The notes: generated by a model from the sequence alone, not told the origin. A stretch of DNA of 64,000 bases from Candidatus Hodarchaeota archaeon (GCA_016839785.1 JAEOTQ010000034.1:1206-65205); one strand, 5' to 3'; shown: positions 20,059 to 33,661, numbered from the stretch's first letter. Made by a program: numbers and translations.

Positions 20059-20763
20059 TCACTGCAATTGTTGAATCAAACTCGCAATGCGGGAGTTAAT
20101 ATCTTTAAGCATGTTTGAACTCAAAAGATCTATATAAGAAATATGCTGCCTATCTTGATTCGAGTAGTACTTCCAATTGGCTGGATAGGGGTCACATATG
20201 AGTCCACTTTTTGCTAGTTTTTTCGTTAAATGACTAATGGCTTTTACAAGAGTTAGATCTTCTTTTATTGTATCACCTTGGACTTCCTCGACAATTAATA
20301 TGGGATATTCCTTGTCAAAAGCCTCAATTTTCGCAATTCCAATTACTTTCGGCGTTATAAAGCGATACTCTTTCAATTCTGGTTCTAAATTGATCTTTTT
20401 AATAGTAGTTAGGAAATCACTAATACAAAAATAATGGATAAGCAATTGAGTTAAATGACGAGAATAATAGGGCTTATACATCAATCTCCCTACTTGCTCA
20501 GAAGGAAAACTCCACCCAAACAGGACGCTGGATCCTCCTGCATAAAATTGAGTTCCGATTAGCTTTTTTCCGAGTTTTTCTTTGATTAATTCAATTTTCT
20601 TAGGCCCTAGAAATTGACCTCTCGAGAATTGGACAACACTCTCAACTAATTCTAGGTTTTTTTGGAGAGCATAATATGAATAATTTTTCTTAAATTCAGG
20701 AAATATACTAAATGTAGGGGGACTCATTATGCCCAAAGACCTATACCCAGTCTGCTGAATCAA
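20059..20763 (-). CDS. Hypothetical protein with faint protein-kinase-like (RIO/Kdo-type) C-lobe features
   Basis: ILIVEEVQGDTI (hinge-like), LAKSGLICDPYPANWKY (catalytic-loop-like, no HxD), ISYIDLLSS (DFG-like position). Overlaps the top6A 3' end by 23 nt, or is separated by 13 nt if Met13 is the start. Confidence 0.4.
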   Translation of the reverse strand: MIQQTGYRSLGIMSPPTFSIFPEFKKNYSYYALQKNLELVESVVQFSRGQFLGPKKIELIKEKLGKKLIGTQFYAGGSSVLFGWSFPSEQVGRLMYKPYYSRHLTQLLIHYFCISDFLTTIKKINLEPELKEYRFITPKVIGIAKIEAFDKEYPILIVEEVQGDTIKEDLTLVKAISHLTKKLAKSGLICDPYPANWKYYSNQDRQHISYIDLLSSNMLKDINSRIASLIQQLQ

Positions 20764-22150
20764 TCTTTGTCGGAAGATACGTTCCAGTCATATATCGCCA
20801 ATTTTTACTAGCTAACGCTTGAATTTCGGCTTTTTGTTTAGTGTTTTTCATTATGAGAATCTGTTTTTCCCACTCAGGACGTGATTTGACGAAATCTTCT
20901 TTTAGCAAATCATCTGCACGTTTCATATCGTTATCTGTCATCTTGATTAATACTGATTTGGGAATTTGGTATTCCTCAATATCAGAGGGTAACAAACCTA
21001 ACCAACGAATATCAGGAACAGCCAACTCAACACTCTCGAAACTTAAGGCCTTGCTTCCTATTGAATATACTCTCAAAATATCTAATCCATACGGATCAGC
21101 ATCTAAGAATCCTAAAATTGGAATTTTTAAATCTTGATACATCTTTTTTATAAATAAACGTGTAGCCATATCAGGCTGTCCTGAAGCAGTAATTAGAATG
21201 CAGGGAATATAATTAAAGAACTTATCCTCTGCTAAGTCTTGGAATACAGCGTCTTTTTCTATTACAAGCATGAATTCTGCATCACTGTCGAAATTTTCTA
21301 CTTGATCAAGCATAGGCGTTATGGCATGACCACCCAATCCCTTTGTACAATCAATACGGTCTCCTCCCTCAGTGAAAGAAAGTCTTCCAATAACTTTGCC
21401 TTTCGCTGTAGCTATAACATTCAATGAATTCCTTGATACACGTAATAACGCCCCCAAATCCTCGATTAATCCATCAGAAACTCTTTGATTTCCAAAAAGA
21501 TTTACATCACGATAAAACAAATGTCTTTTAGTTGCATGCTTTTCAGTTGAAAGTATTTCAGTTACATATCTCATTAAACCAGTTAATTGGACAACACTTT
21601 GCACACTGCTCAAATGACGGAACTGCCTGTCAACAACATTGCTCCCTAAAAGAACCATTCTAGAATTATTATCATAACCAACATTTTCAGAGCTTCGGGA
21701 GGGTATCCGAAAAGCTGCGTTTCGTGGATCCTCTGCAATTTCATCTAGAAATTCTAATGCAACTCTATTTAATCGAGATCTTGTTTCCTCTGCAGATACA
21801 TTGTCTACTTTCAAGATAGACACGGGAAGATCAACATCTGAATCGCTAACATCTTCTCTTATTTTTTTTAGACCAGCCAAGTTAATATTCCTACGAATCT
21901 GGAGTACAACATCTCCTTGATCAGTCATTTCCCATAATTTTGATAAATTCTTTTTCGTCAAAGCTTCAAAGGATTTTGCTTTTTTCAAACCATAGAATAT
22001 CTTCATTTTTTCTGACTTGAGTCCAAGTGCAGTTTTTATTAGACCAATAACTCCTTGTATTGTATCTTTCTCTTCCATTTTCACTTTAATGACTTTATTC
22101 GTAAAAGAATAATCTTCCAGGACAATAGTATGTTGTTTCTTTTCAGACAT
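20741..22150 (-). CDS. top6A: DNA topoisomerase VI subunit A (Spo11 homologue) with a ~100-aa N-terminal extension
   Basis: Catalytic-Tyr region ATKRHLFYRD (Tyr213), Toprim VIEKDAVF and LDADPYGLDI. ATG lies 2 nt after the top6B stop, with GGGAGG upstream. Confidence 0.9.
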   Translation of the reverse strand: MSEKKQHTIVLEDYSFTNKVIKVKMEEKDTIQGVIGLIKTALGLKSEKMKIFYGLKKAKSFEALTKKNLSKLWEMTDQGDVVLQIRRNINLAGLKKIREDVSDSDVDLPVSILKVDNVSAEETRSRLNRVALEFLDEIAEDPRNAAFRIPSRSSENVGYDNNSRMVLLGSNVVDRQFRHLSSVQSVVQLTGLMRYVTEILSTEKHATKRHLFYRDVNLFGNQRVSDGLIEDLGALLRVSRNSLNVIATAKGKVIGRLSFTEGGDRIDCTKGLGGHAITPMLDQVENFDSDAEFMLVIEKDAVFQDLAEDKFFNYIPCILITASGQPDMATRLFIKKMYQDLKIPILGFLDADPYGLDILRVYSIGSKALSFESVELAVPDIRWLGLLPSDIEEYQIPKSVLIKMTDNDMKRADDLLKEDFVKSRPEWEKQILIMKNTKQKAEIQALASKNWRYMTGTYLPTKIDSADWV

Positions 22151-22152
22151 GA

Positions 22153-25100
22153 TTAAGTTCCTCCCATATAGGAATCCAACTGACCCAGGACATCCGTTTT
22201 TCTTCGTAATCTAATATTAGCCCGAATTTTTTTGACTTTTGCTGCAGAAAGACCGTGGGTTTTTCTTAATGATTCTTCAGGCCAATAAATGAAATCAATA
22301 ATTCTAGTAACCCCATTTTTGACTAATTCTTGGGCAGATGGTATAGGTAACTCAGCTAATTTTACAACAGGCATTTCTAAGTCAGATATACAAGCTTTTA
22401 GTAATTTTTTTGGTACTAGCTCATCAGGGATTAAATCTGCATACCTTTTACCATAAAAGTATAGATCTTCAATATTAGTTATACCAAATTCATGTAATGG
22501 CTCATGATATTGCTCTGAAACGCGTACAAAATTCTGGATGGGAGTTCCTAAATTTTTCTTACGTTTCAATTCAGAAAGATTGACCTTTCGGTATTTAGAA
22601 ATTTCATATCTTTTAACTTCAAGTATCTCTGCCAATTCATCTTTATTCCAGAATAAAAATTCAATAATTGATGTTAAACCCACATTAAACAAGAGGGGAA
22701 TCTTTTCGGGAAAAGTCTCCTTTACAAGAGGTAAAACAGCTACTGGCTTTTCAAGGACTCGCTTAACTCCATCTATCGCTGGTATTAGTGATTTCGGACA
22801 CCGATCGGAGTCTAATCTAAAATATAAATCGATTACATTATCAATACCAAGTTCTTGTATTTTTGTTAGCTGATTGGGAGTAAAAGCCCGTAACGAAGAG
22901 AGTTTTACTCTAAATTCTGATTCGGTTTTCTTATGGGTTAGGATATCAACAAGATTAACGGAGTTTCTAGCGAATTCGTAAGTTTCCTCGGATATGATAC
23001 CAGTAGGATCCTCTAATTGAGAGAATTCCGTTTGAATCAAATTATAAACAGAGGTAATCCCATTAAACGCGAGTGGTACGACATAGGCGGAGGGAACTAA
23101 AGAATAATAGGCAAGAGAAGAGTTTAACGCGTCACGTAGATTATTCAATCTAGATTTAAACTGATCAGAAGCGTTCACTGTTTCAATTTCAATAAACAGC
23201 AGATCTTCAAGTGTATTAACTTTAAAAGACGCTAATTCATCAAAATCAATGAATCCAGATTCAATAACACTAGACACTGTTATCTCTGTATCAACTGCCT
23301 TACCTGCTAATTTAAAGTTGAATCTTTGTTTAAATTTATTTATTTCATGATTATTCATTTTTAATATGGTTGATAATCCATCATTTGGAGCGGAAAACCA
23401 AGATCCAAGAGTAGTGATACCAGAGTTTGAAATCTTTCGTAAATCTGCTACTTGAAAATCCTCTGATAGTCTATTTATTGGACCATCAAGTATGTGTAGA
23501 AATTCAGCTATACCATCCAGCTTTACAACATCAGCACTGAAAAGAATTAAAGATTGTAAGGAAGTTATATCTTTGGCCGATAACTTCTCAATAGTTTGAG
23601 GAGGCAGGTATTCTGATAATTTTGTCAAATGGATTGCCTCTTCCTCTAGTTTTTTCATCAGAGAAGAAAAAGTGATCTCATTGGAAACAGATCTGATTTT
23701 AGGAAAGGACGCTGATACCAGGGTTGCCAAATCTCGATGGCTGAGCTTTATGAAATCTCCCACACGCAGTATCGAATTATCTCGCAATGGGAGGAACCAA
23801 TCTATTGGAAGGGAGGGAATAAAGCTAATCGGTATAGATAGTAGCTGACTGAGTTCATTGAAGTTTAAGGTTTTTAATTCTGAATAAAGTAATTCTGGTG
23901 ATTGTTCTAGGATATTTGTTAGTTTTTCAGGATCAGTAGAATATACATCTCGGATAGAGTCAATCTTCTTCTGCTTTAGTTTTTTAACGGCTTCCTTATC
24001 AGCACCTAGTATTAGATAAAGTGGAGTAGCTATTATCGTGAATAATTCAGTCCATAATTCGGTAGTTACACGAATTTTCTTTTCCTTTTGCTTTTTAAGA
24101 AATAGATTTTCATCAGTTGAGATTAATAGCTCATAGACAGTCTTTAGATTTTGTTCATTGATCTTTTTCAAATAATCGGGTGGAAAATTTATTCTTTCGA
24201 TTGAAAGATTCTTCAGTAGGCTAATTGCTTCATTAATGCGAATAGATTCTTGAATCTTCTTAATTCTATCGCCTTCGATGCCAGTTTTTTTGTTAAGTTC
24301 CTCCCATGGATCTATCATTAAATCAAATATCGTAAAAACATTTTTTTGATGAAAAGTCTTTATCTCAGACGTAGTAATTATAGTACTAGTCTCAATAGGC
24401 ATTTCCAGAATTAATCGTGCATCCAATATGGTCTGCCACTCTAAATCACTTTCTTCAATAGTTTTAGGAGTTGCGGTATAATAAAGATCGGCTAAACTTT
24501 CGATTCCATATCGGGAGAATTTCCTTACAGTGTTTTTATCGAATAATGAAATTTTGGTTAAGGGGATCATTTTTTCTTCCTTGATAGTCTTGATATTTGT
24601 AAAATTCAATTTTTGCTTCATCGTTTTTAGCAGTTCGGGTTCTATCTCAATTGTATTCGTAAGTTGTTCATCTGATGTAGTCAAAAAGTCATAAATTGAG
24701 ATTATATTTTCTTCGGCCAGAGCACGATTTTGTTTTCTAGTTAAACCCTCAATAATAGAGGCAGAAGTTTCTGTTGATTCTCTCAATCGCAAGAGATTCA
24801 CTTTTTGACGGAGGTTCTCAACGTTTTCTGGTGGAGTATCTAAAACATTTGCTAATTCGTTTGGGGAGGAAATTAAAAATCGCAAAATGGTGTCAAGCCT
24901 ATAATTTACGAGTTTCTCGATATATTTCGATGGGATGATCCCATTTAGGTAGGTTACAGGTAGATCAAGTGATTCAACACTTTTCTTTACATAGGCAAAA
25001 TCTAGGTCATCCTCTTCGTCTAACATCTCTTCATTGGCACTATAATACAAATCCTCGACGGTTTCAATACCATAATTTGTCAATGTGGAAATCGTCTTGC

Positions 25101-28100
25101 GATTATACCCAGCAACATGTTCCAAAGGCATTCCATGTTCTTTAATTGCGACAGCTTGTTTAAGTTCATCTATTCGTTTTAATGATATGTTAAGGATTGA
25201 TTTAAGTTCATTCTGAGGCCAGTAAATCAGTTTAATGATTTGGTCAATACCATTATTCGCTAAACTTTCCAATCCATCATGAGACACTCGAATCTGGGAC
25301 TTATCTGTACTCGCCTGTAATTGAATCATAGCAATTGGAGTCTCAAGAATCCTTTGATATCGTTCAATTTTTTTCCACTTAACGCCCATAACTCCAAATG
25401 TTTGCTTATCTGCACAAAAATATATACTTTCGACAGTGGAATACCCACGTGATTTTAACGTCTTCATTTCTCCTGCAGTTAATACTCCAAGATCGATCAA
25501 ATCCATTCCATCAGTAAATTTTGGAATATTCCTTGTTAATTCTAGTACATACTCTCTATCGCGTCCTAAAATACCTGCTATTTCGTCTGGTGACCATGTT
25601 AAAAAGTCGATGAATGATTTTATTCCACCACTTCTTAAACTATTTACCCACCTTGGTCTAATATGAGATAATCTCGTAATAGGAGTGTTAAATAGCTCTA
25701 TCAACTTGTTAGTTTCTTTTTGAGTAAGTTTTAGATTCTTAATTATCTCATTTTCATACGGGAGATTGTAATAAAGTTCTTGAACACTTATGTCAGAATT
25801 GAGAAGTTTAGTCCAAGAATTTTGTTCCAAGTTGTTTTTCAATACGGAAATTGGCCTTTTCTTTAAGGAAATCTGCTTCTGAATTCCCTCAAAGGTAATT
25901 TTACTCTTAATGTCTTCAATTATTTTATAGGAAATTCCTGATTTTCTATGTAAATCATAATCAGGCCAGATTAGAAAATTTATTACTTTAGATATTCCTA
26001 AATGATGAAGTAATGCGAAATATTTACTTGGGATTGGTAAATAACATATTGGTACATTTAACTGGTCCAATATTCCCACAAGCTTATCAGACAAGGATTT
26101 AGGCTTGATTTTCTCCTGTGAAATAACAGAAATTAACTCTTCAAGACATAAAATGTCTAATGATTCCAACTTTCCGACTGTTGCATTATCAATCAATGTA
26201 ATAGGGGTTCCATAAGTTCTCTTTATTGTTTCCAAAACCATTGAGTCCATTCCTTTTATTGCACGTAACTCTTCGGTTGGATGGCTAATGAAATCATAAA
26301 TAGTTGAAATCCCTTTGTTGAGGAGAGTTTTTTCTAATTCTAAATCAAGCCAATAAGCTTGTTTTATTGGGACAGGGTCGAACGTAGCATTAATTTCATC
26401 TAGAATTTCATCCTGTTTGATTAATATTAGGGCATCTATAAGTCCCCGGACAATAAGTAGATCCTTTTCAGTTGTTAAGAGAAAATCGATAAAACCGTGA
26501 ACCTCTAATCTTTCCAAATCGGATAACATTGAATTTGAAATTCCGGGTATTTTAAATAATGATGTGTTATCATTGTAAGACTGTAATGCTTCCTTTAAAT
26601 TGTGTTTGGATTTAAATATCAAATTATCGATCAATTCATTTAAATCAGCTAACTTCTCAGAAGGGGAATTGAGGAAATCTTTGATCTTCGATATTTTCCT
26701 TCCTCTTAACTTAGGCGTTACTCGGTAATCCATCCAGTCAAACGTTGATGCTCCAATGACTTTTTCTGGATCAATATACTCTCCTTTCACTCCTTCTCGA
26801 ATTTCTTCTTTTGCACTTTCAATTAAACGAATCGCCAATTTTGGCATAGAAGATATTTTCTCTGGGAAAGCAACAAAGAATTCCAAGATATTGGTTATTT
26901 TTGCACTTCTGAGGACTTTTTCAATGTCTCCAGTTAACCAGGGAAATAATTCTAAATTAAATGCGTCTTCAGAGCTAGAATTCAAAAAATCAGTAATTGT
27001 ATTCAGTTTTGTTTCGTAAATGAGTTTTTCTGGAAAATCATCTACCTCTCGGAGCTGGGAAGAAGGAGTAGAAAAAAAATCAAAGGCATTTACAATCCAT
27101 CTTTTATTTAATGACTTATGGATAGTATTACTACCTCTATATTTTGAAAAATCTCTCTCAATTTCTTTGGAAAAGAATTCGAAATCCCGAACTATTGGGG
27201 AACGATGAGTTTGTTCTTGTTTTGTAACAGTTTTTCTGATAATTGCATCTATCCTTTCGACAGTCATCCCTGTTATGCTGTTCAATTCAACAGCAGGAGT
27301 TCGTAAAAATTGGTATATTGTCTGGATGTTATTTTCAACAAGCTTCAAGTGGATATCCATTGGTAACCATTCGCCGATTGTGGAAATCTGTGGGCTAGGA
27401 GGATATGATCTTCTAACTAATCGTGGAATAGCGGAAGCCAGCGCTTTTTGTAATTTTGATATTTCCTCTCCTGAGGTCAATAGATAAGGTGAGTTTTCAG
27501 CGGTTAAAATGTGAGAAAGGTTTTGTATTACTCTTGGTGCTGCACTTTCAAACCTTGATTGACGTTGTCTCTCTCTTCTTTCACGTTCAGCTCTTCCTAG
27601 ATGTTGTCCAAGTCCTCGTGCTAATTTCTTCAATACACGATTAACTTGATTTCTTAATTCATCAACATCAGCAATGTACTCCTTACTGGTCTCGGGGAAC
27701 GGGATTTTTGAGGATACAACCGAAACAACAATTGCAATGGGTGCTTTATTGATATTAATCTTATAATTCTTCCAATTCATCTTTTGGACGCATTTTGAAA
27801 TCATATCGTTTCCTGCACCAAAGAGTAATGGGATTCGGTTGGCAAATCTATAAATTTTCGGATTAGCCCCTCTAGAACCGTCTTCTTTCGATAGGTTTGG
27901 ACCACCATATGCTAATGCGGCTTCAACTATAAAAGGATGTCCACTGTATGCTGAAATTTCACCAGATGTTGCTTTTACAAATTGAGGTGACAATTCCTTA
28001 CTAATACCTTTTTCAAGGAGTTCCCACCCAAGAGGTGATAATGAATCTCCACTAGGCCGTTTGAATGGAAAATATTTCTTTTCTTTTTTCTTGGTTTTAT

Positions 28101-29109
28101 CTCGTTCGGGTACAGTAAACCCTTCATGGACAATTCTCCGAATGGCAGTAGCACTAAGTTTCTTGGGGTCAGTTTGATGATCAATATTAACAAAATCAAG
28201 GAAGTCCCTCGCGGTTTTAGGACCAATACCTTGGAAATGTTCCTGGAGAAAAATCTCCATCGTATCACTGCTCGTAACACTCAGTTCCCTCTTAAATTGA
28301 GTAATATCTGTACCCCAAGGATGAACTTTGGCAATTCGAGGATATGATGGCATCTCCTCCACTACACGTTCTAGTTCAATAGGAGAATCAGAATCAGGAT
28401 ATTGGATGAATAAACTAGCATAAGGAGTGATCATTGCTAATTGGGAAAAATAATCATAAATATAGCGAGAGGCAAGGTTCCAAGCTCCAGTAAAGGTAAC
28501 AGAAACTTCAGTACCTGATTCAACAATTGCTTCCGCTGTATCCTGAGGAATTTCCCGCTGAGCGAGGATTATTGGTTCATTTTCCGCAAGATTGATCATC
28601 AATTCGTGATAGCTTGTAAAATCTTCATTTATGTACTTCGATTTAATTATTAGAGGTAAATCCACAGATGACATTGCATTTAAGAGGACCATTTTTGCCC
28701 CTAAACCAAATCTACCGCGGGATTGTCGAGCTCCATAGTTACTTCCAGTTAGAACACGGCCAAATAGAGGTGGTACAAATTCGGACTGAATTCCACTTCC
28801 ATTATCTTTTACCGTCAACCGTAAGAAATCAAGTTTCTCAGATGACTCGAACGAACTTATGTTTAGTAATTTTGCTATCTCTTCTTTTTGCAATTTCTTG
28901 ATGGTTACATGGAGCTCTGGTAAATGACCCATTCTTTCTGCTGCATCTAACCCATTTTCCACTAATTCACGAACACTAGTAAAAACAACCCTCATACTAT
29001 TATCGAAACCTGCTATAGCTTTATTATCTTGAAAAAAATCAGCTGCAGATCTTCTTACAACTTTTTCACGAGTAATGTTCTTTTTAGATGGTTTTGAAGC
29101 ATCAGTCAT
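22153..29109 (-). CDS. top6B: DNA topoisomerase VI subunit B, giant form (2,318 aa): canonical core plus ~1,740-aa HhH-repeat tail
   Basis: Core residues 1 to ~530: ELVENGLDAAE (N box), DNGSGI (G1), GRFGLGAKM (G2), H2TH region GIGPKTARDFL, transducer RFANRIPLLF..SKIPFPETSKEYIA. The rest is one uninterrupted 6,957-nt ORF in an AT-rich genome. Confidence 0.9.
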   Translation of the reverse strand: MTDASKPSKKNITREKVVRRSAADFFQDNKAIAGFDNSMRVVFTSVRELVENGLDAAERMGHLPELHVTIKKLQKEEIAKLLNISSFESSEKLDFLRLTVKDNGSGIQSEFVPPLFGRVLTGSNYGARQSRGRFGLGAKMVLLNAMSSVDLPLIIKSKYINEDFTSYHELMINLAENEPIILAQREIPQDTAEAIVESGTEVSVTFTGAWNLASRYIYDYFSQLAMITPYASLFIQYPDSDSPIELERVVEEMPSYPRIAKVHPWGTDITQFKRELSVTSSDTMEIFLQEHFQGIGPKTARDFLDFVNIDHQTDPKKLSATAIRRIVHEGFTVPERDKTKKKEKKYFPFKRPSGDSLSPLGWELLEKGISKELSPQFVKATSGEISAYSGHPFIVEAALAYGGPNLSKEDGSRGANPKIYRFANRIPLLFGAGNDMISKCVQKMNWKNYKININKAPIAIVVSVVSSKIPFPETSKEYIADVDELRNQVNRVLKKLARGLGQHLGRAERERRERQRQSRFESAAPRVIQNLSHILTAENSPYLLTSGEEISKLQKALASAIPRLVRRSYPPSPQISTIGEWLPMDIHLKLVENNIQTIYQFLRTPAVELNSITGMTVERIDAIIRKTVTKQEQTHRSPIVRDFEFFSKEIERDFSKYRGSNTIHKSLNKRWIVNAFDFFSTPSSQLREVDDFPEKLIYETKLNTITDFLNSSSEDAFNLELFPWLTGDIEKVLRSAKITNILEFFVAFPEKISSMPKLAIRLIESAKEEIREGVKGEYIDPEKVIGASTFDWMDYRVTPKLRGRKISKIKDFLNSPSEKLADLNELIDNLIFKSKHNLKEALQSYNDNTSLFKIPGISNSMLSDLERLEVHGFIDFLLTTEKDLLIVRGLIDALILIKQDEILDEINATFDPVPIKQAYWLDLELEKTLLNKGISTIYDFISHPTEELRAIKGMDSMVLETIKRTYGTPITLIDNATVGKLESLDILCLEELISVISQEKIKPKSLSDKLVGILDQLNVPICYLPIPSKYFALLHHLGISKVINFLIWPDYDLHRKSGISYKIIEDIKSKITFEGIQKQISLKKRPISVLKNNLEQNSWTKLLNSDISVQELYYNLPYENEIIKNLKLTQKETNKLIELFNTPITRLSHIRPRWVNSLRSGGIKSFIDFLTWSPDEIAGILGRDREYVLELTRNIPKFTDGMDLIDLGVLTAGEMKTLKSRGYSTVESIYFCADKQTFGVMGVKWKKIERYQRILETPIAMIQLQASTDKSQIRVSHDGLESLANNGIDQIIKLIYWPQNELKSILNISLKRIDELKQAVAIKEHGMPLEHVAGYNRKTISTLTNYGIETVEDLYYSANEEMLDEEDDLDFAYVKKSVESLDLPVTYLNGIIPSKYIEKLVNYRLDTILRFLISSPNELANVLDTPPENVENLRQKVNLLRLRESTETSASIIEGLTRKQNRALAEENIISIYDFLTTSDEQLTNTIEIEPELLKTMKQKLNFTNIKTIKEEKMIPLTKISLFDKNTVRKFSRYGIESLADLYYTATPKTIEESDLEWQTILDARLILEMPIETSTIITTSEIKTFHQKNVFTIFDLMIDPWEELNKKTGIEGDRIKKIQESIRINEAISLLKNLSIERINFPPDYLKKINEQNLKTVYELLISTDENLFLKKQKEKKIRVTTELWTELFTIIATPLYLILGADKEAVKKLKQKKIDSIRDVYSTDPEKLTNILEQSPELLYSELKTLNFNELSQLLSIPISFIPSLPIDWFLPLRDNSILRVGDFIKLSHRDLATLVSASFPKIRSVSNEITFSSLMKKLEEEAIHLTKLSEYLPPQTIEKLSAKDITSLQSLILFSADVVKLDGIAEFLHILDGPINRLSEDFQVADLRKISNSGITTLGSWFSAPNDGLSTILKMNNHEINKFKQRFNFKLAGKAVDTEITVSSVIESGFIDFDELASFKVNTLEDLLFIEIETVNASDQFKSRLNNLRDALNSSLAYYSLVPSAYVVPLAFNGITSVYNLIQTEFSQLEDPTGIISEETYEFARNSVNLVDILTHKKTESEFRVKLSSLRAFTPNQLTKIQELGIDNVIDLYFRLDSDRCPKSLIPAIDGVKRVLEKPVAVLPLVKETFPEKIPLLFNVGLTSIIEFLFWNKDELAEILEVKRYEISKYRKVNLSELKRKKNLGTPIQNFVRVSEQYHEPLHEFGITNIEDLYFYGKRYADLIPDELVPKKLLKACISDLEMPVVKLAELPIPSAQELVKNGVTRIIDFIYWPEESLRKTHGLSAAKVKKIRANIRLRRKTDVLGQLDSYMGGT
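22156..27387 (-). repeat. Protein-level tandem array (~27 units of ~60-70 aa) of HhH / RNAP alpha-CTD-like modules inside top6B
   Basis: Recurrent pattern P(I/V)xxL..(7-12)..LxxxG(I/V)x(T/S)(I/V)xDF(L/I)xxxxxEL..I.G....... Examples: LLNKGISTIYDFISHPTEELRAIKGM; LRSGGIKSFIDFLTWSPDEIAGILG; LVKNGVTRIIDFIYWPEESLRKTHGLSAAKVKKIRANI (22213-22326). It alternates with a GIxxVxDLYY flavour (GIETVEDLYYSA, GIESLADLYYTA, GITNIEDLYFYG). Confidence 0.75.
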
Positions 29110-31617
29110 TCAATCATCTCCCTTACTAGCACTTCCACCAGCAATTAAGGCAACTGAAGAAATTTTTACTCCACTATCTCTCTCCAAACGCATCAGAGTG
29201 ACTCCAGATGTTGCACGACCAATCACTCGGATATCTTTCATTTGCATTTGTATTAACTTTCCATCATTCGCAACCATCAGAAGTAAATGTTCTTCAGTGA
29301 CACTTTTTACAGCAATCACATCACCATTTCTTTGGGTTACTTTGATATTGATAACTCCTTTTCCATTTCGTCTTGTAATCCGATACTTGTCAAAAGTTGA
29401 TCGTTTACCGTAACCATTCTCACAAACAGTTAGGAGAGTCATTTTTTCGTCAACAATAGCCAAATCAACAACAGAATCGTCCGAATTGAGACGAATTCCC
29501 ATCACACCCAAGCTACTTCTACCCACAACTCGTACATCAGATTCTTTGAAACGAATCGCTTTACCCTTCTTGGTAGCTAAGATAATGCCTTTTGTACCAT
29601 CAGTAATTTTAGCTCCAATTATCATATCATCATCACGTAATTTTTGCGCAATGATTCCAGTAGTACGGATGTTTTCATAATCAGTTAAGGACGATTTCTT
29701 TATTAATCCATTTTTTGTTGCTAAGACTAGAAAATGATCTGGATTGAAATCTCTAACACGAATAACAGAGACAATCTTATCGGTTCTATCCATCCGTAGA
29801 AGATTGACTATATTCAGTCCTTTCGTAACGCGTTGTTTAGAGATCGGAATTTCGAATCCACGAACGCGGTAGACTCGTCCTTGAACTGTGAAAAATAAGA
29901 TAGTGTCGTGAGTCGAGGCTACTATCATTTCTTGTAGGAAATCATCTCTACCGATTTCCATTGATTTAATCCCTTTACCCCCACGATGCTGGGAATTATA
30001 CACATCAGTAGAAATCGATTTAATATAGCCATTAGATGTTAGAGTGATAACAATATCCTCTTTTGTGATGAAATCTTCCTCAGTTTTATCAGTCCAATTT
30101 TCATAGCTATCCGAATCATCAAGGACGATACGTGTTCTTCTGGGATCTCCATATTTAGATTTTATTTCATCAATTTCACTAATAATTATTCCTATGATAC
30201 GTTGTTCACTCCCCAATATATCTTCATAATCTTTAATCGCTTCGAGTATTTCTTTGTACTCTTGGAGTATTTTGTCTCTGTCAAAACGTGTTAAACTTCT
30301 GAGTGGTAAAGCGAGAATATCTTTAGCTTGGATTTCACTAAGAGGAAAATTGCTTATTAACGCGGATTGGGCTTCAGACCCATTACTTGACCCTCTAATA
30401 ATCTTTATTACTTCATCAAGATTTTCGACAACGATCTTTCTCCCTTCTAATATATGGGCTCTTTCACGAGCTTTTTTCAGATCAAATTCCGTTCTACGCA
30501 CGACTATCTCATGTCGGTGATCGATGAATTGAGTTAGTAAATCTTTCAAATTAAGATTTTTCGGACGAATTTTGACCTCATCCCCCACTTTAGCATCTAC
30601 TAAAACCATATTCTTAATGGAATATGAAGTTTGCATAGGAGTGAATTTGTATAAGCGATTCAAAACAACTTCTAAGTTGGCAGATTGTTTTAGATTGATA
30701 ACTATTCTCGTTCCGCGTATAATGTTGGATTCATTCTTAACACTCCCTATCTCTGGAAATTTTCCTGCTTCTTTCATTCTCTCGATTATATCCACTAAAC
30801 CACGATGTTCTATTGTATCTTGTCGCTTTACAAGATATGGTACCTCTGTTATTATTATTCTTGTCCTATTTTTTTTCTCTTCAATTTCATATTTTGCTCG
30901 TAGGATTACATTACCTGTACCAGTATGGTAAGCTCGCTTTATTCCTTTCGTGCCGAAAATTACTGCTCCTGTGGGAAAATCTGGCCCTGGAATATATTTC
31001 ATTAATTCTGTTATGGTAATTTCAGGATTTGCAATTACAGCTTTTACTCCATCTAAGACTTCCCCTAAATTGTGAGGGGGCATAGAAGTTGCCATACCTA
31101 CAGCTATTCCCATAACTCCATTTATAAGAAGATTAGGGATTTTTGCAGGTAGAATAACTGGTTCTTGATCTAAACCATCAAAGTTGTCTACAAGATCAAC
31201 TGTATTTTTGTTAATGTCCATAAGAAGTTCATTGGAGATTTCAGCCATTCTGGCTTCAGTATATCGCTGAGCTGCGGCTGGTTGTCCATCCATACTTCCA
31301 AAATTTCCTTGACCTTGAATTAAAGGATATCTAAGAGAAAAAGGTTGTGCTAATCGTACCAACGCATTATAAACTGCATCTCCTCCATGAGGATGATATT
31401 TTGCACTAGTTTCTCCAATAGTCCTTGCACATTTTCTTGGTGGACGATTATGAACTAATCCCAAATTATGCATCGCCCATAAAATACGCCTATGAACAGG
31501 TTTCAATCCATCTCGCACGTGGGGAAGTGCTCTACTTGTTATTACAGACATGGAGTACTCTAAATAGCTTTTTGCCATGGTTTTTTCAATAGGAGTGATC
31601 CTGATATTACTACTCAT
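29110..31617 (-). CDS. gyrA: DNA gyrase subunit A
   Basis: SRALPHVRDGLKPVHRRIL, AKYHPHGGDAVY, catalytic AAAQRYTEARM, C-terminal beta-pinwheel repeats. I prefer the ATG at 31617 (MSSNIRITPIEK...) over the track's TTG at 31635. The stop TGA abuts the top6B ATG. Confidence 0.92.
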   Translation of the reverse strand: MSSNIRITPIEKTMAKSYLEYSMSVITSRALPHVRDGLKPVHRRILWAMHNLGLVHNRPPRKCARTIGETSAKYHPHGGDAVYNALVRLAQPFSLRYPLIQGQGNFGSMDGQPAAAQRYTEARMAEISNELLMDINKNTVDLVDNFDGLDQEPVILPAKIPNLLINGVMGIAVGMATSMPPHNLGEVLDGVKAVIANPEITITELMKYIPGPDFPTGAVIFGTKGIKRAYHTGTGNVILRAKYEIEEKKNRTRIIITEVPYLVKRQDTIEHRGLVDIIERMKEAGKFPEIGSVKNESNIIRGTRIVINLKQSANLEVVLNRLYKFTPMQTSYSIKNMVLVDAKVGDEVKIRPKNLNLKDLLTQFIDHRHEIVVRRTEFDLKKARERAHILEGRKIVVENLDEVIKIIRGSSNGSEAQSALISNFPLSEIQAKDILALPLRSLTRFDRDKILQEYKEILEAIKDYEDILGSEQRIIGIIISEIDEIKSKYGDPRRTRIVLDDSDSYENWTDKTEEDFITKEDIVITLTSNGYIKSISTDVYNSQHRGGKGIKSMEIGRDDFLQEMIVASTHDTILFFTVQGRVYRVRGFEIPISKQRVTKGLNIVNLLRMDRTDKIVSVIRVRDFNPDHFLVLATKNGLIKKSSLTDYENIRTTGIIAQKLRDDDMIIGAKITDGTKGIILATKKGKAIRFKESDVRVVGRSSLGVMGIRLNSDDSVVDLAIVDEKMTLLTVCENGYGKRSTFDKYRITRRNGKGVINIKVTQRNGDVIAVKSVTEEHLLLMVANDGKLIQMQMKDIRVIGRATSGVTLMRLERDSGVKISSVALIAGGSASKGDD

Positions 31618-31639
31618 CTTAAATTCATCCCTCAATTCA

Positions 31640-33661
31640 TTAAATATCTAAATTTTCAACTTCTAACGCGTGAGTTTCAATAAACTCACGTCTAGGTGCC
31701 ACTTCTTCACCCATCAATGTGACAAACATTCGTTCCGCATCAATTAGGTTCTTTCGAGTCACTTGAAGCAGTGTTCGCTTCTCTGGATCCATTACTGTCT
31801 CACGAAGCTGAATCGGGTTCATCTCCCCAAGCCCTTTAAATCGGCTTATTTCTGTTTTTCCTCCCCACTCTTGAATGGTTTCGTCCCTTTCTTGCTCGGA
31901 AAGAACGTATAATTCCTTGTTCCCCTTTTTAACCCGAAATAAGGGAGGTTGTGCAATATAAAGATAGCCCTCATCAATTAATTCGGGCATATATCTAAAA
32001 AAGAAAGTTAATAGAAGACATACGATATGATGACCATCGATATCTGCATCCATCAATAAAATAATTTTATGATAGCGAACTTTCTCTATTTTGAAGTGTT
32101 CTTTATAACTCGCTCCGATTGCACGAATAATTTCAAGAATTTCCTTGTTTTTCATTGCTTTTTCTAATCGTGCCTTTTCTACATTGATAACTTTACCTCG
32201 TAACGGTAAAATAGCTTGAAATTCACTAAATCGACCTTCAATTGCACTACCACCTGCTGAATCTCCTTCAACCAAAAATAGCTCTCGTTTAGAAGGATCA
32301 GAAACTGCGCAATCCACTAATTTCCCCGACCCTTTTCCCTGTGTTTTCCTTACTGCTTCTCTGATTTGTCGAAACTTCATTCGTAACGTAGCAGCTGCTT
32401 CACATTTCTCTATGATACTCCTAGAACTCTCGGGGTGTTCATCAAGAAATCTAAGTATGTTCTCATACACACAGCTCTCTACAACTCCCTTTACTTCACT
32501 ATTTCCTAATTTACTTTTGGTTTGTCCTTCAAATTGAGGATTCATGATTTTAACTGATACGACTGCAACAAGTCCTTCACGAACGTCATTTCCAGTAAAA
32601 ATTGACCTCTTTTCTTTTAATCCCTTTTTCAAATGTGTATTGCGTATTAATTGCTCATTTTTCAAAACGTATGCATTTAAAGCTCGTGTTAATCCTGACT
32701 TAAAACCAGATAAATGTGTTCCCCCATGTCTTGTGTTAATATTATTTGTAAAGGTATTAATTAAATCTCTCTCTGAACGATCATAAGCTAGGGCAACTTC
32801 TACTTGCATTTTCTCAATATTCACATCAAAATAGGGAATATCATCATGAACGCGAGTTGTAGCAAGCTGATCTACATAAGCTTTTATTCCTCCATCAAAA
32901 TGATAAATCCATTTGTTTAAAGGTGTCTCATGATCTACATCCTCTGATTCTTCTAAAAGTGATTGAGATTCATCTGATTCTAAATCGATCTGTGATTCGG
33001 AAATAGGAAGTTCCTGTTTCCTTTCATCAATAAGTGTAATTGTAAGCCCTTTATTTAAAAAAGCTAACTCCCTTAAGCGATTTCGGATTGTAACAACATC
33101 TACTTGGGTTACTTCGAAAATTTCAGGATCAGGAATGAATGTAATATGGGTTCCACTCTCATATTCCCATTCCTCTTCCACAGTAATCACTCCATGGGAA
33201 ATGGTTTCTCCCCTAACATACTCTTGCATCTGAACAGAATTATTTCTCTTGACTTTGACTTGCATCCAGCGTGATAGCGCGTTTACAACAGCAATCCCGA
33301 CCCCATGAAGTCCACCACTAACTTTGTACGACTCGTGGTCAAATTTCCCTCCAGAATGTAATCGTGTGGTCACTAGTTCTAATGAAGAGATATTGTAATC
33401 AGGATGGATTTCCGTAGGGATTCCCCTACCATTATCTTGGACCGTTATTGATTCTTGTCCATGTTCTGTTTGACTTAATATCACAGTAATATTATCACAG
33501 ACATCAGCCATGGCTTCATCGACTGAATTATCCACAATTTCCCAAACGAGATGATGAAGCCCGTTTTCATCTATACTTCCAATATACATAGCAGGACGGC
33601 GACGAACCGCTTCAAGGCCTTCTAGAACCTGTATACTACTTGCACCATATTCACTTGACAA
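31640..33661 (-). CDS. gyrB: DNA gyrase subunit B
   Basis: IQVLEGLEAVRRRPAMYIGS, EIVDNSVDEA, DNGRGIP, GGLHGVG, Toprim EGDSAGGS and MDADIDGHHI. TTG start. Confidence 0.92.
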   Translation of the reverse strand: MSSEYGASSIQVLEGLEAVRRRPAMYIGSIDENGLHHLVWEIVDNSVDEAMADVCDNITVILSQTEHGQESITVQDNGRGIPTEIHPDYNISSLELVTTRLHSGGKFDHESYKVSGGLHGVGIAVVNALSRWMQVKVKRNNSVQMQEYVRGETISHGVITVEEEWEYESGTHITFIPDPEIFEVTQVDVVTIRNRLRELAFLNKGLTITLIDERKQELPISESQIDLESDESQSLLEESEDVDHETPLNKWIYHFDGGIKAYVDQLATTRVHDDIPYFDVNIEKMQVEVALAYDRSERDLINTFTNNINTRHGGTHLSGFKSGLTRALNAYVLKNEQLIRNTHLKKGLKEKRSIFTGNDVREGLVAVVSVKIMNPQFEGQTKSKLGNSEVKGVVESCVYENILRFLDEHPESSRSIIEKCEAAATLRMKFRQIREAVRKTQGKGSGKLVDCAVSDPSKRELFLVEGDSAGGSAIEGRFSEFQAILPLRGKVINVEKARLEKAMKNKEILEIIRAIGASYKEHFKIEKVRYHKIILLMDADIDGHHIVCLLLTFFFRYMPELIDEGYLYIAQPPLFRVKKGNKELYVLSEQERDETIQEWGGKTEISRFKGLGEMNPIQLRETVMDPEKRTLLQVTRKNLIDAERMFVTLMGEEVAPRREFIETHALEVENLDI

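What the first reader, a model, noticed from the sequence alone, without database searches (positions are those of the whole stretch)
22153..29109. Giant Topo VI B subunit: canonical core fused to a ~1,740-aa train of ~27 HhH/alpha-CTD-like modules
Seen in the sequence: one uninterrupted 6,957-nt ORF. Residues 1 to ~530 carry every Top6B hallmark (Bergerat N/G1/G2 boxes, H2TH, transducer). Residues ~575-2318 consist of a recurring ~60-70-aa unit: P(I/V)xxL, then LxxxG(I/V)x(T/S)(I/V)xDF(L/I)xxxxxEL..I.G. Two flavours alternate, one of the form ..F(L/I)xWPxxEL and one of the form GIxxVxDLYY. Established knowledge: characterised archaeal Top6B proteins are ~530-600 aa. This pattern is that of helix-hairpin-helix modules such as the RNAP alpha-CTD. 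The only topoisomerase known to carry a long HhH train is Methanopyrus Topo V, with 24 HhH motifs that confer processivity and salt tolerance. Inference: the tail is a sequence-independent DNA-binding or DNA-capturing appendage grafted onto a type IIB enzyme, by convergence with Topo V. It could alter G-/T-segment capture, tether the enzyme to chromatin, or scaffold partners, analogous to the eukaryotic Topo VI accessory factors.
Basis: partly seen in the sequence, partly recalled or inferred. Interest (0 to 1): 0.86.

Follow-up and report, generated by a model that had tools for sequence, protein, structure and literature searches.

The report
Giant Topo VI-B with HhH-domain tail
This Asgard (Hodarchaeales) archaeon encodes a real, conserved topoisomerase VI B subunit four times the normal size, because about 28 small helix-hairpin-helix domains are fused to its end; nobody seems to have described this architecture and its function is untested.

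Summary
Window 22153-29109 on the minus strand is one 2,318-aa ORF. Residues 1-552 are a complete Top6B with all catalytic motifs. Residues 575-2318 are about 28 tandem 55-65-aa units. A profile of the units matches RNA polymerase alpha-CTD, the RAD51/RAD51D N-terminal domain and NusA AR domains, all (HhH)2-type folds. AlphaFold2 models six units as confident helical bundles.

It is not an artefact. At least 77 homologues of 2.2-4.3 kb-aa scale (2,189-4,341 aa) exist in Heimdallarchaeia. Orthologues align across the tail with almost no indels. Tail dN/dS is 0.07. The gene sits in a conserved, tightly packed gyrB-gyrA-top6B-top6A-kinase-like operon, including on a record titled as a chromosome.

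The Topo V analogy is architectural. No homology to Topo V was detected. The tail is mildly acidic (pI 5.7), and the second glycine of the canonical GhG hairpin is usually replaced. Direct DNA binding is therefore plausible but unproven, and a protein or chromatin scaffold is a serious rival.

The sequences are public and annotated "Top6B". I found no paper describing the array. I rate it a new variant of a known enzyme, interest about 0.7.

The parts
22153..29109 (-). top6B, 2,318 aa (264.7 kDa), single uninterrupted ORF including the stop codon
   Evidence: a near-identical protein (reported as 100% identity over 100% of the query; a few residues differ) is in NCBI/JGI as 'DNA topoisomerase VI subunit B [Candidatus Hodarchaeales archaeon]'
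27454..29109 (-). Top6B catalytic core, residues 1-552: GHKL/Bergerat ATPase, H2TH, transducer and C-terminal helix
   Evidence: NCBIfam PRK04184 E 1e-129; Pfam Topo-VIb_trans 352-516; HATPase_c 46-141; H2TH-type hits (NFACT_N, S13) at 256-330; full-length alignment to 2zbk_B with catalytic motifs conserved
27388..27453 (-). Short Pro-rich linker, residues 553-574 (…RLVRRSYPPSPQ…), between the last transducer helix and the first unit
   Evidence: sequence; the alignment to S. shibatae Top6B ends at residue 552; the first unit starts at 575
22156..27387 (-). Tail, residues 575-2318: about 28 tandem alpha-CTD / RAD51-NTD-like (HhH)2 units, period about 55-70 aa
   Evidence: self-HMM units; Pfam RAD51D_N, HHH_5, RNA_pol_A_CTD; unit profile vs PDB: 1doq alpha-CTD 1.8e-6, 2kz3 RAD51D-N 4.9e-6, NusA AR, RAD51 NTD; dN/dS 0.07
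24550..25722 (-). Residues 1130-1520 (six units, including two B-A pairs) modelled by AlphaFold2
   Evidence: mean pLDDT 84, pTM 0.59, 3-5 short helices per unit; best local structural match is the RAD51 N-terminal lobe 8xbw_L (TMt 0.70, rmsd 2.5 Å), but no Foldseek hit reaches E<=1e-3
24910..25509 (-). Most conserved tail block 1, residues 1201-1400 (74-75% identity to orthologues; dN/dS 0.036); contains the near-invariant FGVMGVKWKKIERYQR and GIETVEDLYF motifs
22156..23109 (-). Most conserved tail block 2, residues 2001-2318 (66-75% identity; dN/dS 0.032), ending in a basic C-terminus (+6 over residues 2255-2318)
20741..22150 (-). top6A, 469 aa, with the catalytic Tyr (RHLFYR), Toprim E and DxD conserved, plus a 113-aa N-terminal extension; its start lies 2 nt after the top6B stop
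   Evidence: Pfam TP6A_N and TOP6A-Spo11_Toprim; alignment to 2zbk_A; gene junction
29110..31635 (-). gyrA, 841 aa; its TGA stop directly abuts the top6B ATG; GyrA-box variant QHRGGKG
31640..33661 (-). gyrB, 673 aa, first gene of the co-directional cluster
20059..20727 (-). 222-aa ORF with a protein-kinase-like fold, last gene of the conserved cluster
   Evidence: synteny in at least 14 loci; 52 homologues, those that carry a name assigned almost all to Hodarchaeales/Heimdallarchaeota MAGs, no Pfam family; AF2 pLDDT 91.4, pTM 0.88; Foldseek Rio2 6fdn_A E 2e-5, PknB and others

Best explanation
This is the genuine B subunit of an active type IIB topoisomerase (Topo VI) of a Hodarchaeales (Heimdallarchaeia, Asgard) archaeon. 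A complete catalytic core (residues 1-552) is joined by a ~20-aa proline-rich linker to about 28 tandem, individually diverged (HhH)2 domains of the RNAP alpha-CTD / RAD51 N-terminal type (residues 575-2318). The A2B2 enzyme would therefore carry two arms of about 200 kDa each.

Shown here:
- The ORF is intact and the core motifs are present.
- The units belong to the alpha-CTD/RAD51-NTD sequence family and are predicted with confidence to be small helical bundles.
- The array is ancient, positionally fixed and under strong purifying selection.
- It is a lineage-wide feature of Heimdallarchaeia.
- The gene is embedded in a tightly packed gyrB-gyrA-top6B-top6A-kinase-like operon.

Inferred mechanism. 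The tail leaves the end of the transducer, next to Top6A and the DNA gate. There it most likely acts as a long, multivalent, low-specificity arm that binds DNA or chromatin. Such an arm would hold the enzyme on the chromosome and raise the local concentration of a second duplex, either G-segment flanks or the T-segment. That would bias Topo VI towards resolving crossings and catenanes, while the co-transcribed gyrase sets supercoiling. This is functionally analogous to the (HhH)2 train of Topo V and to the C-terminal DNA-binding domains of GyrA/ParC. Only a subset of units need contact DNA: the conserved basic patches at 1055-1174, the WKK/R motif of B-type units, and the C-terminus. The other units would serve as spacers or partner-binding sites.
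For: ORF and core:
- Single ORF on the - strand.
- Top6B equivalog hit E 1e-129, with all motifs conserved against 2zbk_B.
- The partner Top6A has the catalytic Tyr and Toprim residues.

Unit identity:
- Pfam RAD51D_N 7e-26, HHH_5 5e-13, RNA_pol_A_CTD 1e-6.
- A 60-unit profile hits T. thermophilus alpha-CTD over its full length (1.8e-6), RAD51D-N (4.9e-6), RAD51/RadA NTD, NusA AR1, Y-family polymerase thumb HhH and Brr2.
- The AF2 six-unit model has pLDDT 84 and pTM 0.59. The best local structural match is the RAD51 N-lobe.

Reality and constraint:
- 77 of 80 best homologues carry the units, at lengths up to 3,917 aa. Another homologue reaches 4,341 aa with a confirmed Top6B core.
- 24 orthologues at 57-86% identity align over the tail with about zero gaps.
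- dN/dS is 0.070 for the tail against 0.053 for the core.
- There are no DNA-level repeats.
- Full synteny without frameshifts holds in 13 full-length genome loci, including CP070695.1, whose record title calls it a chromosome.

Operon and context:
- The gyrA stop abuts the top6B start, and top6A starts 2 nt after the top6B stop.
- Villain et al. 2022 proposed that Top6B C-terminal extensions co-evolved with gyrase acquisition, and report gyrase in Heimdall-, Kari- and Hodarchaeota (PMC9348778).
- Topo V (HhH)2 domains wrap DNA and act as a processivity factor (PMC9489208).
- The arrays are near-exclusive to this family. In 1.84 billion representative proteins only 33 match the unit profile at E<=1e-30, and these are giant Top6Bs or shorter proteins that look like fragments of them (one top hit checked against Pfam).
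Against: No DNA-binding evidence exists, and several features argue against a uniform DNA-binding train.
- The tail has net charge -24 and pI 5.7, below the window median of 6.6. The core has pI 9.1 and GyrA 9.4.
- The unit logo conserves mainly hydrophobic core positions. Only one basic position stands out (K/R 84% at column 49).
- The first hairpin glycine is present in 51% of units and the second-hairpin glycine in 35%. The second Gly of the canonical G-h-G is almost always S/D/T/E/P. Equivalents of the alpha-CTD DNA-contact residues K298/S299 are not conserved (the E. coli numbering comes from my own knowledge).
- Foldseek gave no significant hit for the multi-unit model, and Topo V ranked 40th (E 1.5).
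- Each unit has its own conserved sequence, which suits distinct partners as well as it suits DNA.
- Expression of the full-length 265-kDa protein has not been demonstrated.
Confidence: 0.5

Rival explanations
1. The tail is mainly a protein-protein or chromatin scaffold rather than a direct DNA binder. Individual, position-specific (HhH)2-like units would dock distinct partners such as histones or histone tails, SMC/segregation or replisome factors, gyrase, or the co-operonic kinase-like protein. This would localise or regulate Topo VI, much as Corbett et al. proposed that the M. mazei Ig-like CTD 'sequesters' the enzyme.
For: - The tail is acidic (pI 5.7, net -24).
- Canonical DNA-contact features of the HhH hairpin are lost, and conservation is largely structural.
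- The closest sequence relatives (alpha-CTD, NusA AR1/AR2, RAD51/RAD51D NTD) are well-known protein-interaction modules (for the hits; their roles are established knowledge).
- The best structural match, 8xbw_L, is a RAD51 N-lobe bound to the histone H4 tail.
- Every unit is positionally conserved with its own sequence and no indels across orthologues. This is expected for specific docking sites and unusual for a generic DNA-binding repeat.
- The localisation hypothesis for Top6B CTDs is already in the literature (PMC9348778).
Against: - No partner has been identified.
- The fold also binds DNA in alpha-CTD, RAD51 NTD and Topo V.
- Basic patches do exist (1055-1174 at +9; the C-terminus at +6; the conserved WKKIERYQR).
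- Twenty-eight distinct partners is implausible, so many units would still need another role.
Confidence: 0.3
2. The tail carries additional enzymatic DNA-repair activity (AP/dRP lyase). This would make the protein bifunctional like Topo V, in which 3 of the 12 (HhH)2 domains are lyases.
For: - There is architectural analogy with Topo V (PMC9489208 and PMC4838376).
- HhH domains are frequent in lyases and glycosylases (established knowledge).
- One lysine/arginine position is conserved in 84% of units.
Against: - No similarity to Topo V lyase domains or to any glycosylase/lyase family was detected.
- The conserved K lies at the end of the last helix, as in non-catalytic alpha-CTDs (alignment).
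- No catalytic motif was identified.
Confidence: 0.05
3. The giant ORF is an artefact: an assembly chimera, a mis-joined repeat, or a fusion of separate genes by sequencing error. Alternatively it is a decaying, functionless expansion.
For: One related metagenome contig (L022) has the gene in three reading frames (611 + 617 + 1,033 aa) with small deletions at the breaks. One record titled a chromosome (L019) matches only up to tail residue 832.
Against: - Intact, collinear ORFs of 2,311-2,330 aa occur in more than 20 independent assemblies from different studies, including CP070695.1, titled a chromosome.
- Orthologues show essentially zero indels.
- dN/dS is 0.07.
- There is no DNA-level repetition that could mislead an assembler.
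- GC content is similar to the window (0.34-0.38 against 0.35).
Confidence: 0.02

Closest known systems
Canonical archaeal Topo VI B subunit (S. shibatae 2zbk_B, 530 aa; M. mazei 2q2e_B, 621 aa)
   Same: The core is full-length and homologous: GHKL ATPase with N/G1/G2 boxes, H2TH, transducer with WKxY and the switch Lys. It is adjacent to an active-looking Top6A.
   Different: A 1,744-aa C-terminal array of about 28 (HhH)2-like domains follows the core. S. shibatae has only a short helix there, and M. mazei has a ~100-aa Ig-like CTD. There is a 16-aa insertion in the GHKL domain. The gene is co-directional and tightly packed with gyrBA, whereas haloarchaea have the two pairs contiguous with divergent promoters (PMC9348778).
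Methanopyrus kandleri topoisomerase V (type IC) with 12 tandem (HhH)2 domains
   Same: A topoisomerase catalytic module is followed by a long uninterrupted train of (HhH)2-type domains. In Topo V these wrap DNA and confer processivity and salt tolerance (PMC9489208).
   Different: - The catalytic class is unrelated (type IIB ATP-dependent against type IC).
- There are more than twice as many domains (about 28; homologues reach 4,341 aa).
- The units belong to the alpha-CTD/RAD51-NTD subfamily, with no detectable specific similarity to Topo V.
- The tail is acidic.
- No lyase motifs were found.
- The resemblance is therefore convergent architecture, not membership.
RNA polymerase alpha-CTD / RAD51-RAD51D-RadA N-terminal domain / NusA AR1-AR2 ((HhH)2, SAM-like helical domains; Pfam RNA_pol_A_CTD, RAD51D_N, HHH_5, HHH_XRCC3_RpoA)
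   Same: Unit-level sequence homology: profile E values of 1e-6 to 1e-3 against solved structures, with full-length alignment to T. thermophilus alpha-CTD. The helix pattern in the AF2 model is the same.
   Different: Those domains occur once or twice per protein. Here about 28 are concatenated. The second hairpin rarely keeps the G-h-G, and the alpha-CTD DNA-contact residues are not conserved.
C-terminal DNA-binding domains of type IIA topoisomerases (GyrA/ParC beta-pinwheel CTD; eukaryotic Topo II CTD)
   Same: A non-catalytic C-terminal appendage sits near the DNA gate. In those enzymes it sets substrate preference or chromosomal localisation. This is a functional analogy from established knowledge.
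   Different: The fold is completely different (all-helical HhH bundles against a beta-pinwheel or a disordered CTD). It is attached to the ATPase (B) subunit rather than the cleavage subunit. Its function is untested.

Membership tests
DNA topoisomerase VI subunit B (Top6B) | GHKL/Bergerat ATPase fold with the catalytic E-x3-N (N box), DxGxG (G1) and GxxGxG (G2) | tested here: met
   RELVENGLDA, DNGSGI and GRFGLGAK align to S. shibatae 2zbk_B; HATPase_c/HATPase_c_3 hits
DNA topoisomerase VI subunit B (Top6B) | H2TH domain between the GHKL domain and the transducer | tested here: met
   Residues ~256-330 align to the H2TH region of 2zbk_B and give H2TH-type Pfam hits: NFACT_N 4e-5, Ribosomal_S13 0.11
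DNA topoisomerase VI subunit B (Top6B) | Transducer domain with the WKxY motif and the switch lysine | tested here: met
   Pfam Topo-VIb_trans 352-516, E 8e-51; NWKNY and ETSKEYIA align to DWKRY and SAGKESIA
DNA topoisomerase VI subunit B (Top6B) | Whole-protein score above the curated equivalog cut-off | tested here: met
   NF003218 PRK04184 scores 433 bits against a cut-off of 274. TIGR01052 scores 348 against 380.7, just below
DNA topoisomerase VI subunit B (Top6B) | Paired Top6A/Spo11-type subunit with the catalytic Tyr and Toprim acidic residues | tested here: met
   The adjacent 469-aa ORF has TP6A_N plus Toprim (3e-62); Tyr in RHLFYR, EKDAVF and DADPYG are conserved against 2zbk_A
DNA topoisomerase VI subunit B (Top6B) | ATP-dependent strand passage as an A2B2 heterotetramer | not testable with these tools
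   Requires biochemistry
(HhH)2 / RNAP alpha-CTD-like domain superfamily (each tail unit) | Significant profile match to curated HhH-type families and to solved (HhH)2 domains | tested here: met
   RAD51D_N 7e-26, HHH_5 5e-13, RNA_pol_A_CTD 1e-6; PDB 1doq 1.8e-6, 2kz3 4.9e-6, 1u9l 5e-4. Individual units are weak, and the Pfam significance comes from summing many units
(HhH)2 / RNAP alpha-CTD-like domain superfamily (each tail unit) | Compact bundle of 4-5 short helices containing two helix-hairpin-helix motifs | tested here: inconclusive
   AF2 predicts 4-5 helices per A-type unit and 3 per B-type unit, at pLDDT 84. Foldseek's best local match is the RAD51 N-lobe (TMt 0.70), but no hit reaches E<=1e-3
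(HhH)2 / RNAP alpha-CTD-like domain superfamily (each tail unit) | Canonical hairpin glycines (G-h-G) used for backbone-phosphate contacts | tested here: not met
   Across 1,597 units the first-hairpin G is present in 51% and the second-hairpin G in 35%. The second Gly of G-h-G is mostly S/D/T/E/P
Topo V-type HhH processivity tail | Tandem (HhH)2 domains directly following a topoisomerase catalytic module | tested here: met
   About 28 units follow the core after a ~20-aa linker
Topo V-type HhH processivity tail | Sequence or structural homology to the Topo V (HhH)2 domains | tested here: not met
   Topo V is not among the 60 listed PDB profile hits. Foldseek places 8df9_B at rank 40, E 1.5, prob 0.04
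Topo V-type HhH processivity tail | The domains bind or encircle DNA along a positively charged track and enhance processivity and salt tolerance | not testable with these tools
   Only indirect data are available: tail pI 5.7 and net charge -24 argue against a uniformly basic track
Top6B Ig-like CTD (M. mazei type, gyrase-containing Euryarchaeota) | A ~100-aa beta-sandwich domain after the transducer | tested here: not met
   No Ig-type family hit. The modelled segment 1130-1520 is all-helical. HhH-type units tile the rest of the tail from residue 575

The most novel reading that the evidence does not exclude
The ~200-kDa HhH arm, two per holoenzyme and possibly tens of nanometres long, is a chromosome-scale tether or crossing sensor. 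It would anchor Topo VI to archaeal chromatin (histones or SMC-type axes) and gather distant duplexes. That would turn the enzyme into a dedicated, scaffolded decatenase working alongside gyrase, and possibly regulated by the co-operonic kinase-like protein. [quoted passage not shown]
Probability: 0.15. Interest if true: 0.85.

Novelty: new variant of a known kind. Interest (0 to 1): 0.7.

Why it matters
[quoted passage not shown] Its B subunit has been treated as a 500-650-aa protein. Here the whole Heimdallarchaeia group, the archaea usually placed nearest to eukaryotes, carries B subunits of 2,200-4,300 aa. The extra mass is a strictly conserved train of HhH-type domains, encoded in one operon with gyrase.

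If the arm binds DNA, it is the second and by far the largest example of an HhH processivity or capture device on a topoisomerase. It would then give a concrete handle on how Topo VI and gyrase divide labour, an open question raised by Villain et al. 2022 and McKie et al. 2022. If it binds proteins or chromatin, it shows eukaryote-like scaffolding of a topoisomerase in an archaeon.

Either way it is directly testable: recombinant full-length against tail-less enzyme, and experiments in the now-cultured Hodarchaeales. It also warns that phylogenomic studies which trim Top6B to its core have overlooked about 75% of the protein.

Tried and rejected
- Translating the + strand gave a stop-riddled sequence, so the ORF is on the - strand.
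- My first PDB query of the tail used a wrong frame.
- phmmer of the whole tail against PDB sequences found nothing at E<=1. Only a profile of aligned units reached solved structures.
- Foldseek of the six-unit AF2 model against PDB gave no hit at E<=1e-3. Structural confirmation of the fold therefore rests on local matches and on sequence profiles.
- TRF found no DNA-level tandem repeats.
- The genome-contig scan used a single peptide pattern and recovered mostly the Hodarchaeales clade. It is not a census of Asgard Top6B.
- Pfam family PF26169, listed in the precomputed annotations, is only a generic HhH family (HHH_XRCC3_RpoA). It is not a dedicated model of this tail.
I repeated it with database homologues.
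- Literature searches in PMC and bioRxiv covered Top6B/Topo VI, Asgard/Heimdall/Hodarchaeales and HhH. I also read the five most relevant papers, including one supplement. None describes the giant form.
- I considered an intein or mobile insertion. I rejected it because no intein or endonuclease families hit the tail, and the tail is a homogeneous repeat array at the C-terminus.
- I considered an Ig-like CTD of the M. mazei type and rejected it (no Ig-type family hit; the modelled segment is all-helical).
Full report
OBSERVATION

The ORF is real and sits exactly at 22153-29109, but on the minus strand. The + strand reading is full of stops. The reverse complement translates into 2,318 codons followed by a single stop. 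The predicted protein is 264.7 kDa. GC content is 0.38 in the core and 0.34 in the tail, against 0.35 for the window, so nothing looks foreign.

CORE

NCBIfam's Top6B equivalog PRK04184 matches residues 10-541 (E 1e-129, 433 bits against a cut-off of 274). Pfam Topo-VIb_trans matches 352-516 (E 8e-51). The first 552 residues align end to end with S. shibatae Top6B (2zbk_B, E 1e-78; PDB chains are 530 aa, and 621 aa for M. mazei). Conserved features are:
- the ATPase E-x3-N (RELVENGLDA);
- G1 (DNGSGI) and G2 (GRFGLGAK);
- the H2TH region;
- WKxY (NWKNY);
- the switch lysine.

The only notable core difference is a 16-aa insertion in the GHKL domain. The downstream gene is Top6A (469 aa). Its catalytic tyrosine (RHLFYR against RDLYYR), Toprim glutamate and DxD are conserved. 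It also has a 113-aa N-terminal extension with no family match.

TAIL ANATOMY

After a short Pro-rich linker (553-574), an HMM trained on the protein's own repeats and iterated over 80 homologues finds 26 units between 575 and 2298, 25 of them at E<0.01. Two gaps (966-1019 and 1071-1142) each hold one more degenerate unit visible by eye. The total is about 28 units with a period of about 55-70 aa.

Six units are a shortened 'B type' (G-I-x-T-V-E-D-L-Y-F/Y followed by an acidic stretch). Each B-type unit is followed by a full 'A type' unit. Four of those six A-type units carry F/I-x-W-[PSN] (a fifth such motif lies at residue 1045, in an A-type unit that does not follow a scored B-type unit). 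Units share only about 12-40% identity with each other. There is no DNA-level repetition.

WHAT THE UNITS ARE

Independent Pfam models hit the tail: RAD51D_N (7e-26), HHH_5 (5e-13) and RNA_pol_A_CTD (1e-6). Significance comes from summing many weak units. The precomputed family PF26169 is 'HHH_XRCC3_RpoA', another generic HhH model.

The raw tail has no phmmer hit in the PDB. A profile of 60 units does hit solved structures:
- the T. thermophilus RNAP alpha-CTD over its whole length (1doq, 1.8e-6);
- the RAD51D N-terminal domain (2kz3, 4.9e-6);
- RAD51/RadA N-terminal domains;
- NusA AR1 (1u9l, 5e-4);
- Y-family polymerase thumb HhH and Brr2.

AlphaFold2 on residues 1130-1520 with a 20-sequence alignment gives mean pLDDT 84 and pTM 0.59. 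It predicts 4-5 short helices per A-type unit and 3 per B-type unit. Foldseek against the PDB gave no hit at E<=1e-3. The best local matches are RAD51 N-lobes (8xbw_L TMt 0.70, rmsd 2.5 Å; 9q2a_B prob 1.0). Topo V (8df9_B) ranks only 40th (E 1.5). The units are therefore alpha-CTD/RAD51-NTD-type (HhH)2 domains by sequence profile. The structural support is consistent but not statistically decisive.

NOT AN ARTEFACT, AND LINEAGE-WIDE

A near-identical protein (reported as 100% identity over 100% of the query; a few residues differ) is in NCBI and JGI as 'DNA topoisomerase VI subunit B [Candidatus Hodarchaeales archaeon]' on a 156-kb contig. Of the 80 best homologues, 77 carry the units. Their lengths run from 2,189 to 3,917 aa, excluding partial sequences. 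They are named as Hodarchaeales, Heimdallarchaeaceae, Kariarchaeaceae and the like. An exhaustive profile search of 1.84 billion representative proteins finds only 33 proteins at E<=1e-30. These are giant Top6Bs or shorter proteins that look like their fragments; I checked only one of them against Pfam, P0207, which is 4,341 aa and has a Top6B core. Much shorter stand-alone alpha-CTD repeat proteins also exist, for example 663 aa with 7 repeats.

Within the Hodarchaeales clade, 24 orthologues at 57-86% identity align over 1,750 tail residues with essentially no gaps. Tail identity is 0.59 against 0.81 for the core. Blocks 1201-1400 and 2001-2300 are nearly as conserved as the core. NG86 dN/dS against the L004 orthologue is 0.070 for the tail and 0.053 for the core, and 0.03-0.04 in the two conserved blocks.

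Outside Heimdallarchaeia, the nearest Top6B cores are only 36-39% identical and mostly 505-650 aa long (one Korarchaeota hit is 814 aa). One related contig (L022) has the gene in three frames with small deletions at the breaks. This is probably an assembly error or a local pseudogene.

GENOMIC CONTEXT

The gene lies in a co-directional cluster: gyrB (31640-33661), gyrA (29110-31635), top6B, top6A (20741-22150) and a 222-aa ORF (20059-20727).
- The gyrA TGA abuts the top6B ATG, and a GGGAG lies upstream.
- top6A starts 2 nt after the top6B stop.
- The last ORF starts 13 nt after the top6A stop.

The same five-gene order recurs in 11 loci, and at least the top6B-top6A-ORF part in 14 loci, from different studies. 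These include CP070695.1, whose record title calls it a chromosome. GyrA has a GyrA-box variant, QHRGGKG.

The 222-aa ORF belongs to a 52-member family. Those that carry a name are assigned almost all to Hodarchaeales or Heimdallarchaeota MAGs, and the family has no Pfam model. It is predicted with high confidence (pLDDT 91, pTM 0.88) to adopt a protein-kinase-like fold. The best Foldseek match is Rio2 (6fdn_A, E 2e-5), followed by PknB and others. It has GGSS…F, K-P-Y-Y, D-P-Y-P-x-N-W-K and Y-I-D-L-L-S-S-N motifs.

MECHANISM

Shown: this is a complete Topo VI with a conserved, selected array of about 28 domains attached at the C-terminal end of the transducer. In solved Topo VI structures that end lies next to Top6A and the DNA gate (established knowledge).

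Inferred: the most likely role is a multivalent arm that binds DNA or chromatin. It would keep the enzyme on the chromosome and raise the local concentration of a second duplex. That would favour resolving crossings and catenanes while the co-transcribed gyrase manages supercoiling. Three lines of published work fit this:
- the (HhH)2 train of Topo V wraps DNA and acts as a processivity factor (PMC9489208);
- Top6B C-terminal extensions have been proposed to co-evolve with gyrase (PMC9348778);
- the DNA-binding CTDs of GyrA/ParC play a comparable role (established knowledge).

Caution is needed for several reasons.
- The tail is mildly acidic (net -24, pI 5.7). The window median is 6.6, the Top6B core 9.1 and GyrA 9.4.
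- The unit logo conserves mainly the hydrophobic core, G19 (51%), T22, D25, G39 (35%) and one basic position (K/R 84%).
- The second Gly of the canonical G-h-G hairpin is almost always replaced, often by an acidic residue.
- Equivalents of the alpha-CTD DNA-contact residues are not conserved (the E. coli sequence and numbering come from my own knowledge).

Basic patches do exist at 1055-1174 (+9), in the near-invariant VKWKKIERYQR of a B-type unit, and at the C-terminus (+6). A protein or chromatin scaffold is therefore a strong rival, at about 0.3. The position-specific conservation of every unit suits that rival at least as well.

COMPARISON WITH WHAT IS KNOWN, AND NOVELTY

As an enzyme it is a member of Top6B: every sequence-level defining feature I tested was met, apart from a near-miss on the TIGR01052 cut-off. 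As an architecture it resembles Topo V only by analogy, because the homology test was not met. It lacks the Ig-like CTD of M. mazei-type Top6B.

Published surveys that included Asgard Top6B mention a 'C-terminal extension' or 'globular domain' (Villain 2022), a 'CTD +' and a third transducer helix (Brinkmeier 2022), or paralogy (Nat Ecol Evol 2025). None reports the size or the HhH array. Reviews of archaeal topoisomerases do not mention it either. A preprint on cultured Hodarchaeales does not mention topoisomerases. The sequences themselves are public and generically annotated.

My judgement is 'new variant of a known kind', with interest about 0.7. It would surprise a topoisomerase specialist and is directly testable, but its function is still inferred.

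Noticed in passing
window 20059-33661 (- strand): Five co-directional genes, gyrB-gyrA-top6B-top6A-ORF222, have abutting or near-abutting stop and start codons. The gyrA TGA is followed directly by the top6B ATG, there is a 2-nt gap before top6A, and a 13-nt gap before ORF222. The same five-gene order is conserved in 11 Hodarchaeales-type loci, and at least top6B-top6A-ORF222 in 14. A type IIA and a type IIB topoisomerase in one apparent operon is unusual: the literature describes contiguous genes with divergent promoters in haloarchaea.
   Followed up: partly
window 20059-20727 (-): This 222-aa ORF is annotated everywhere as hypothetical and has no Pfam family. Its 52 homologues, where named, are assigned almost all to Hodarchaeales or Heimdallarchaeota MAGs. 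AF2 (pLDDT 91, pTM 0.88) predicts a minimal protein-kinase-like fold; the best PDB match is Rio2 (E 2e-5). Invariant motifs are GGSS..F, KPYY, DxYxxNW and Y.DL.SSN. It may be a regulator or partner of Topo VI or gyrase.
   Followed up: partly
window 21812-22150 (-), Top6A residues 1-113: Top6A carries a 113-aa N-terminal extension that is absent from crenarchaeal and euryarchaeal structures and has no significant family match. It may correspond to the 'Asgard/eukaryal N-terminal helix' described by Brinkmeier et al. 2022.
   Followed up: no
window 29110-31635 (-), GyrA residues ~548-554: The GyrA-box is QHRGGKG rather than the canonical Q(R/K)RGG(R/K)G.
   Followed up: no
L022 1369-8183 (JGI 3300041085 contig Ga0452209_041493): A relative whose core is 84% identical has the gene split over three reading frames (611 + 617 + 1,033 aa). 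About 35 and 14 residues are missing at the two breaks. This could be an assembly error, a pseudogene or a naturally split variant.
   Followed up: partly
L019 7481-11398 (CP070760.1, titled a Heimdallarchaeota chromosome): The Top6B match stops at tail residue 832, and the corresponding protein P0030 is 1,306 aa and labelled 'partial'. No gyrA/gyrB or top6A match was seen in the 21-kb locus. I did not examine whether this reflects masking, an insertion or a rearrangement.
   Followed up: no
proteins P0078, P0079 (Helarchaeota, ~1,330 aa) and P0080 (2,053 aa): These show a different kind of enlarged Top6B. They have an N-terminal extension of about 270-300 aa and a 700-1,500-aa insertion between the GHKL domain and the transducer. 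My unit HMM finds none of its alpha-CTD-like units in them (P0080 has one weak Pfam HHH_5 hit, 1.9e-5). They might contain inteins or another inserted module.
   Followed up: no
proteins P0233 (663 aa) and P0227 (528 aa) from the representative library: These are stand-alone proteins made of 4-7 strong RNA_pol_A_CTD repeats (E 5e-81 and 4e-62) without a topoisomerase core. Their organism and function are unknown. They show that short alpha-CTD arrays exist elsewhere.
   Followed up: no
window 19471-20037 (+) and 34681-35196 (-): A Ras/Arf/Roc-family small GTPase (E 2e-35) lies just downstream of the cluster on the other strand, also in related loci. A 171-aa coiled-coil protein lies upstream of gyrB. 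These are typical Asgard 'eukaryotic signature' neighbours and have no evident link to the topoisomerases.
   Followed up: no
window 28873-28920 (-), Top6B residues ~64-79: There is a 16-aa insertion (KEEIAKLLNISSFESS) in the GHKL domain relative to S. shibatae Top6B.
   Followed up: no
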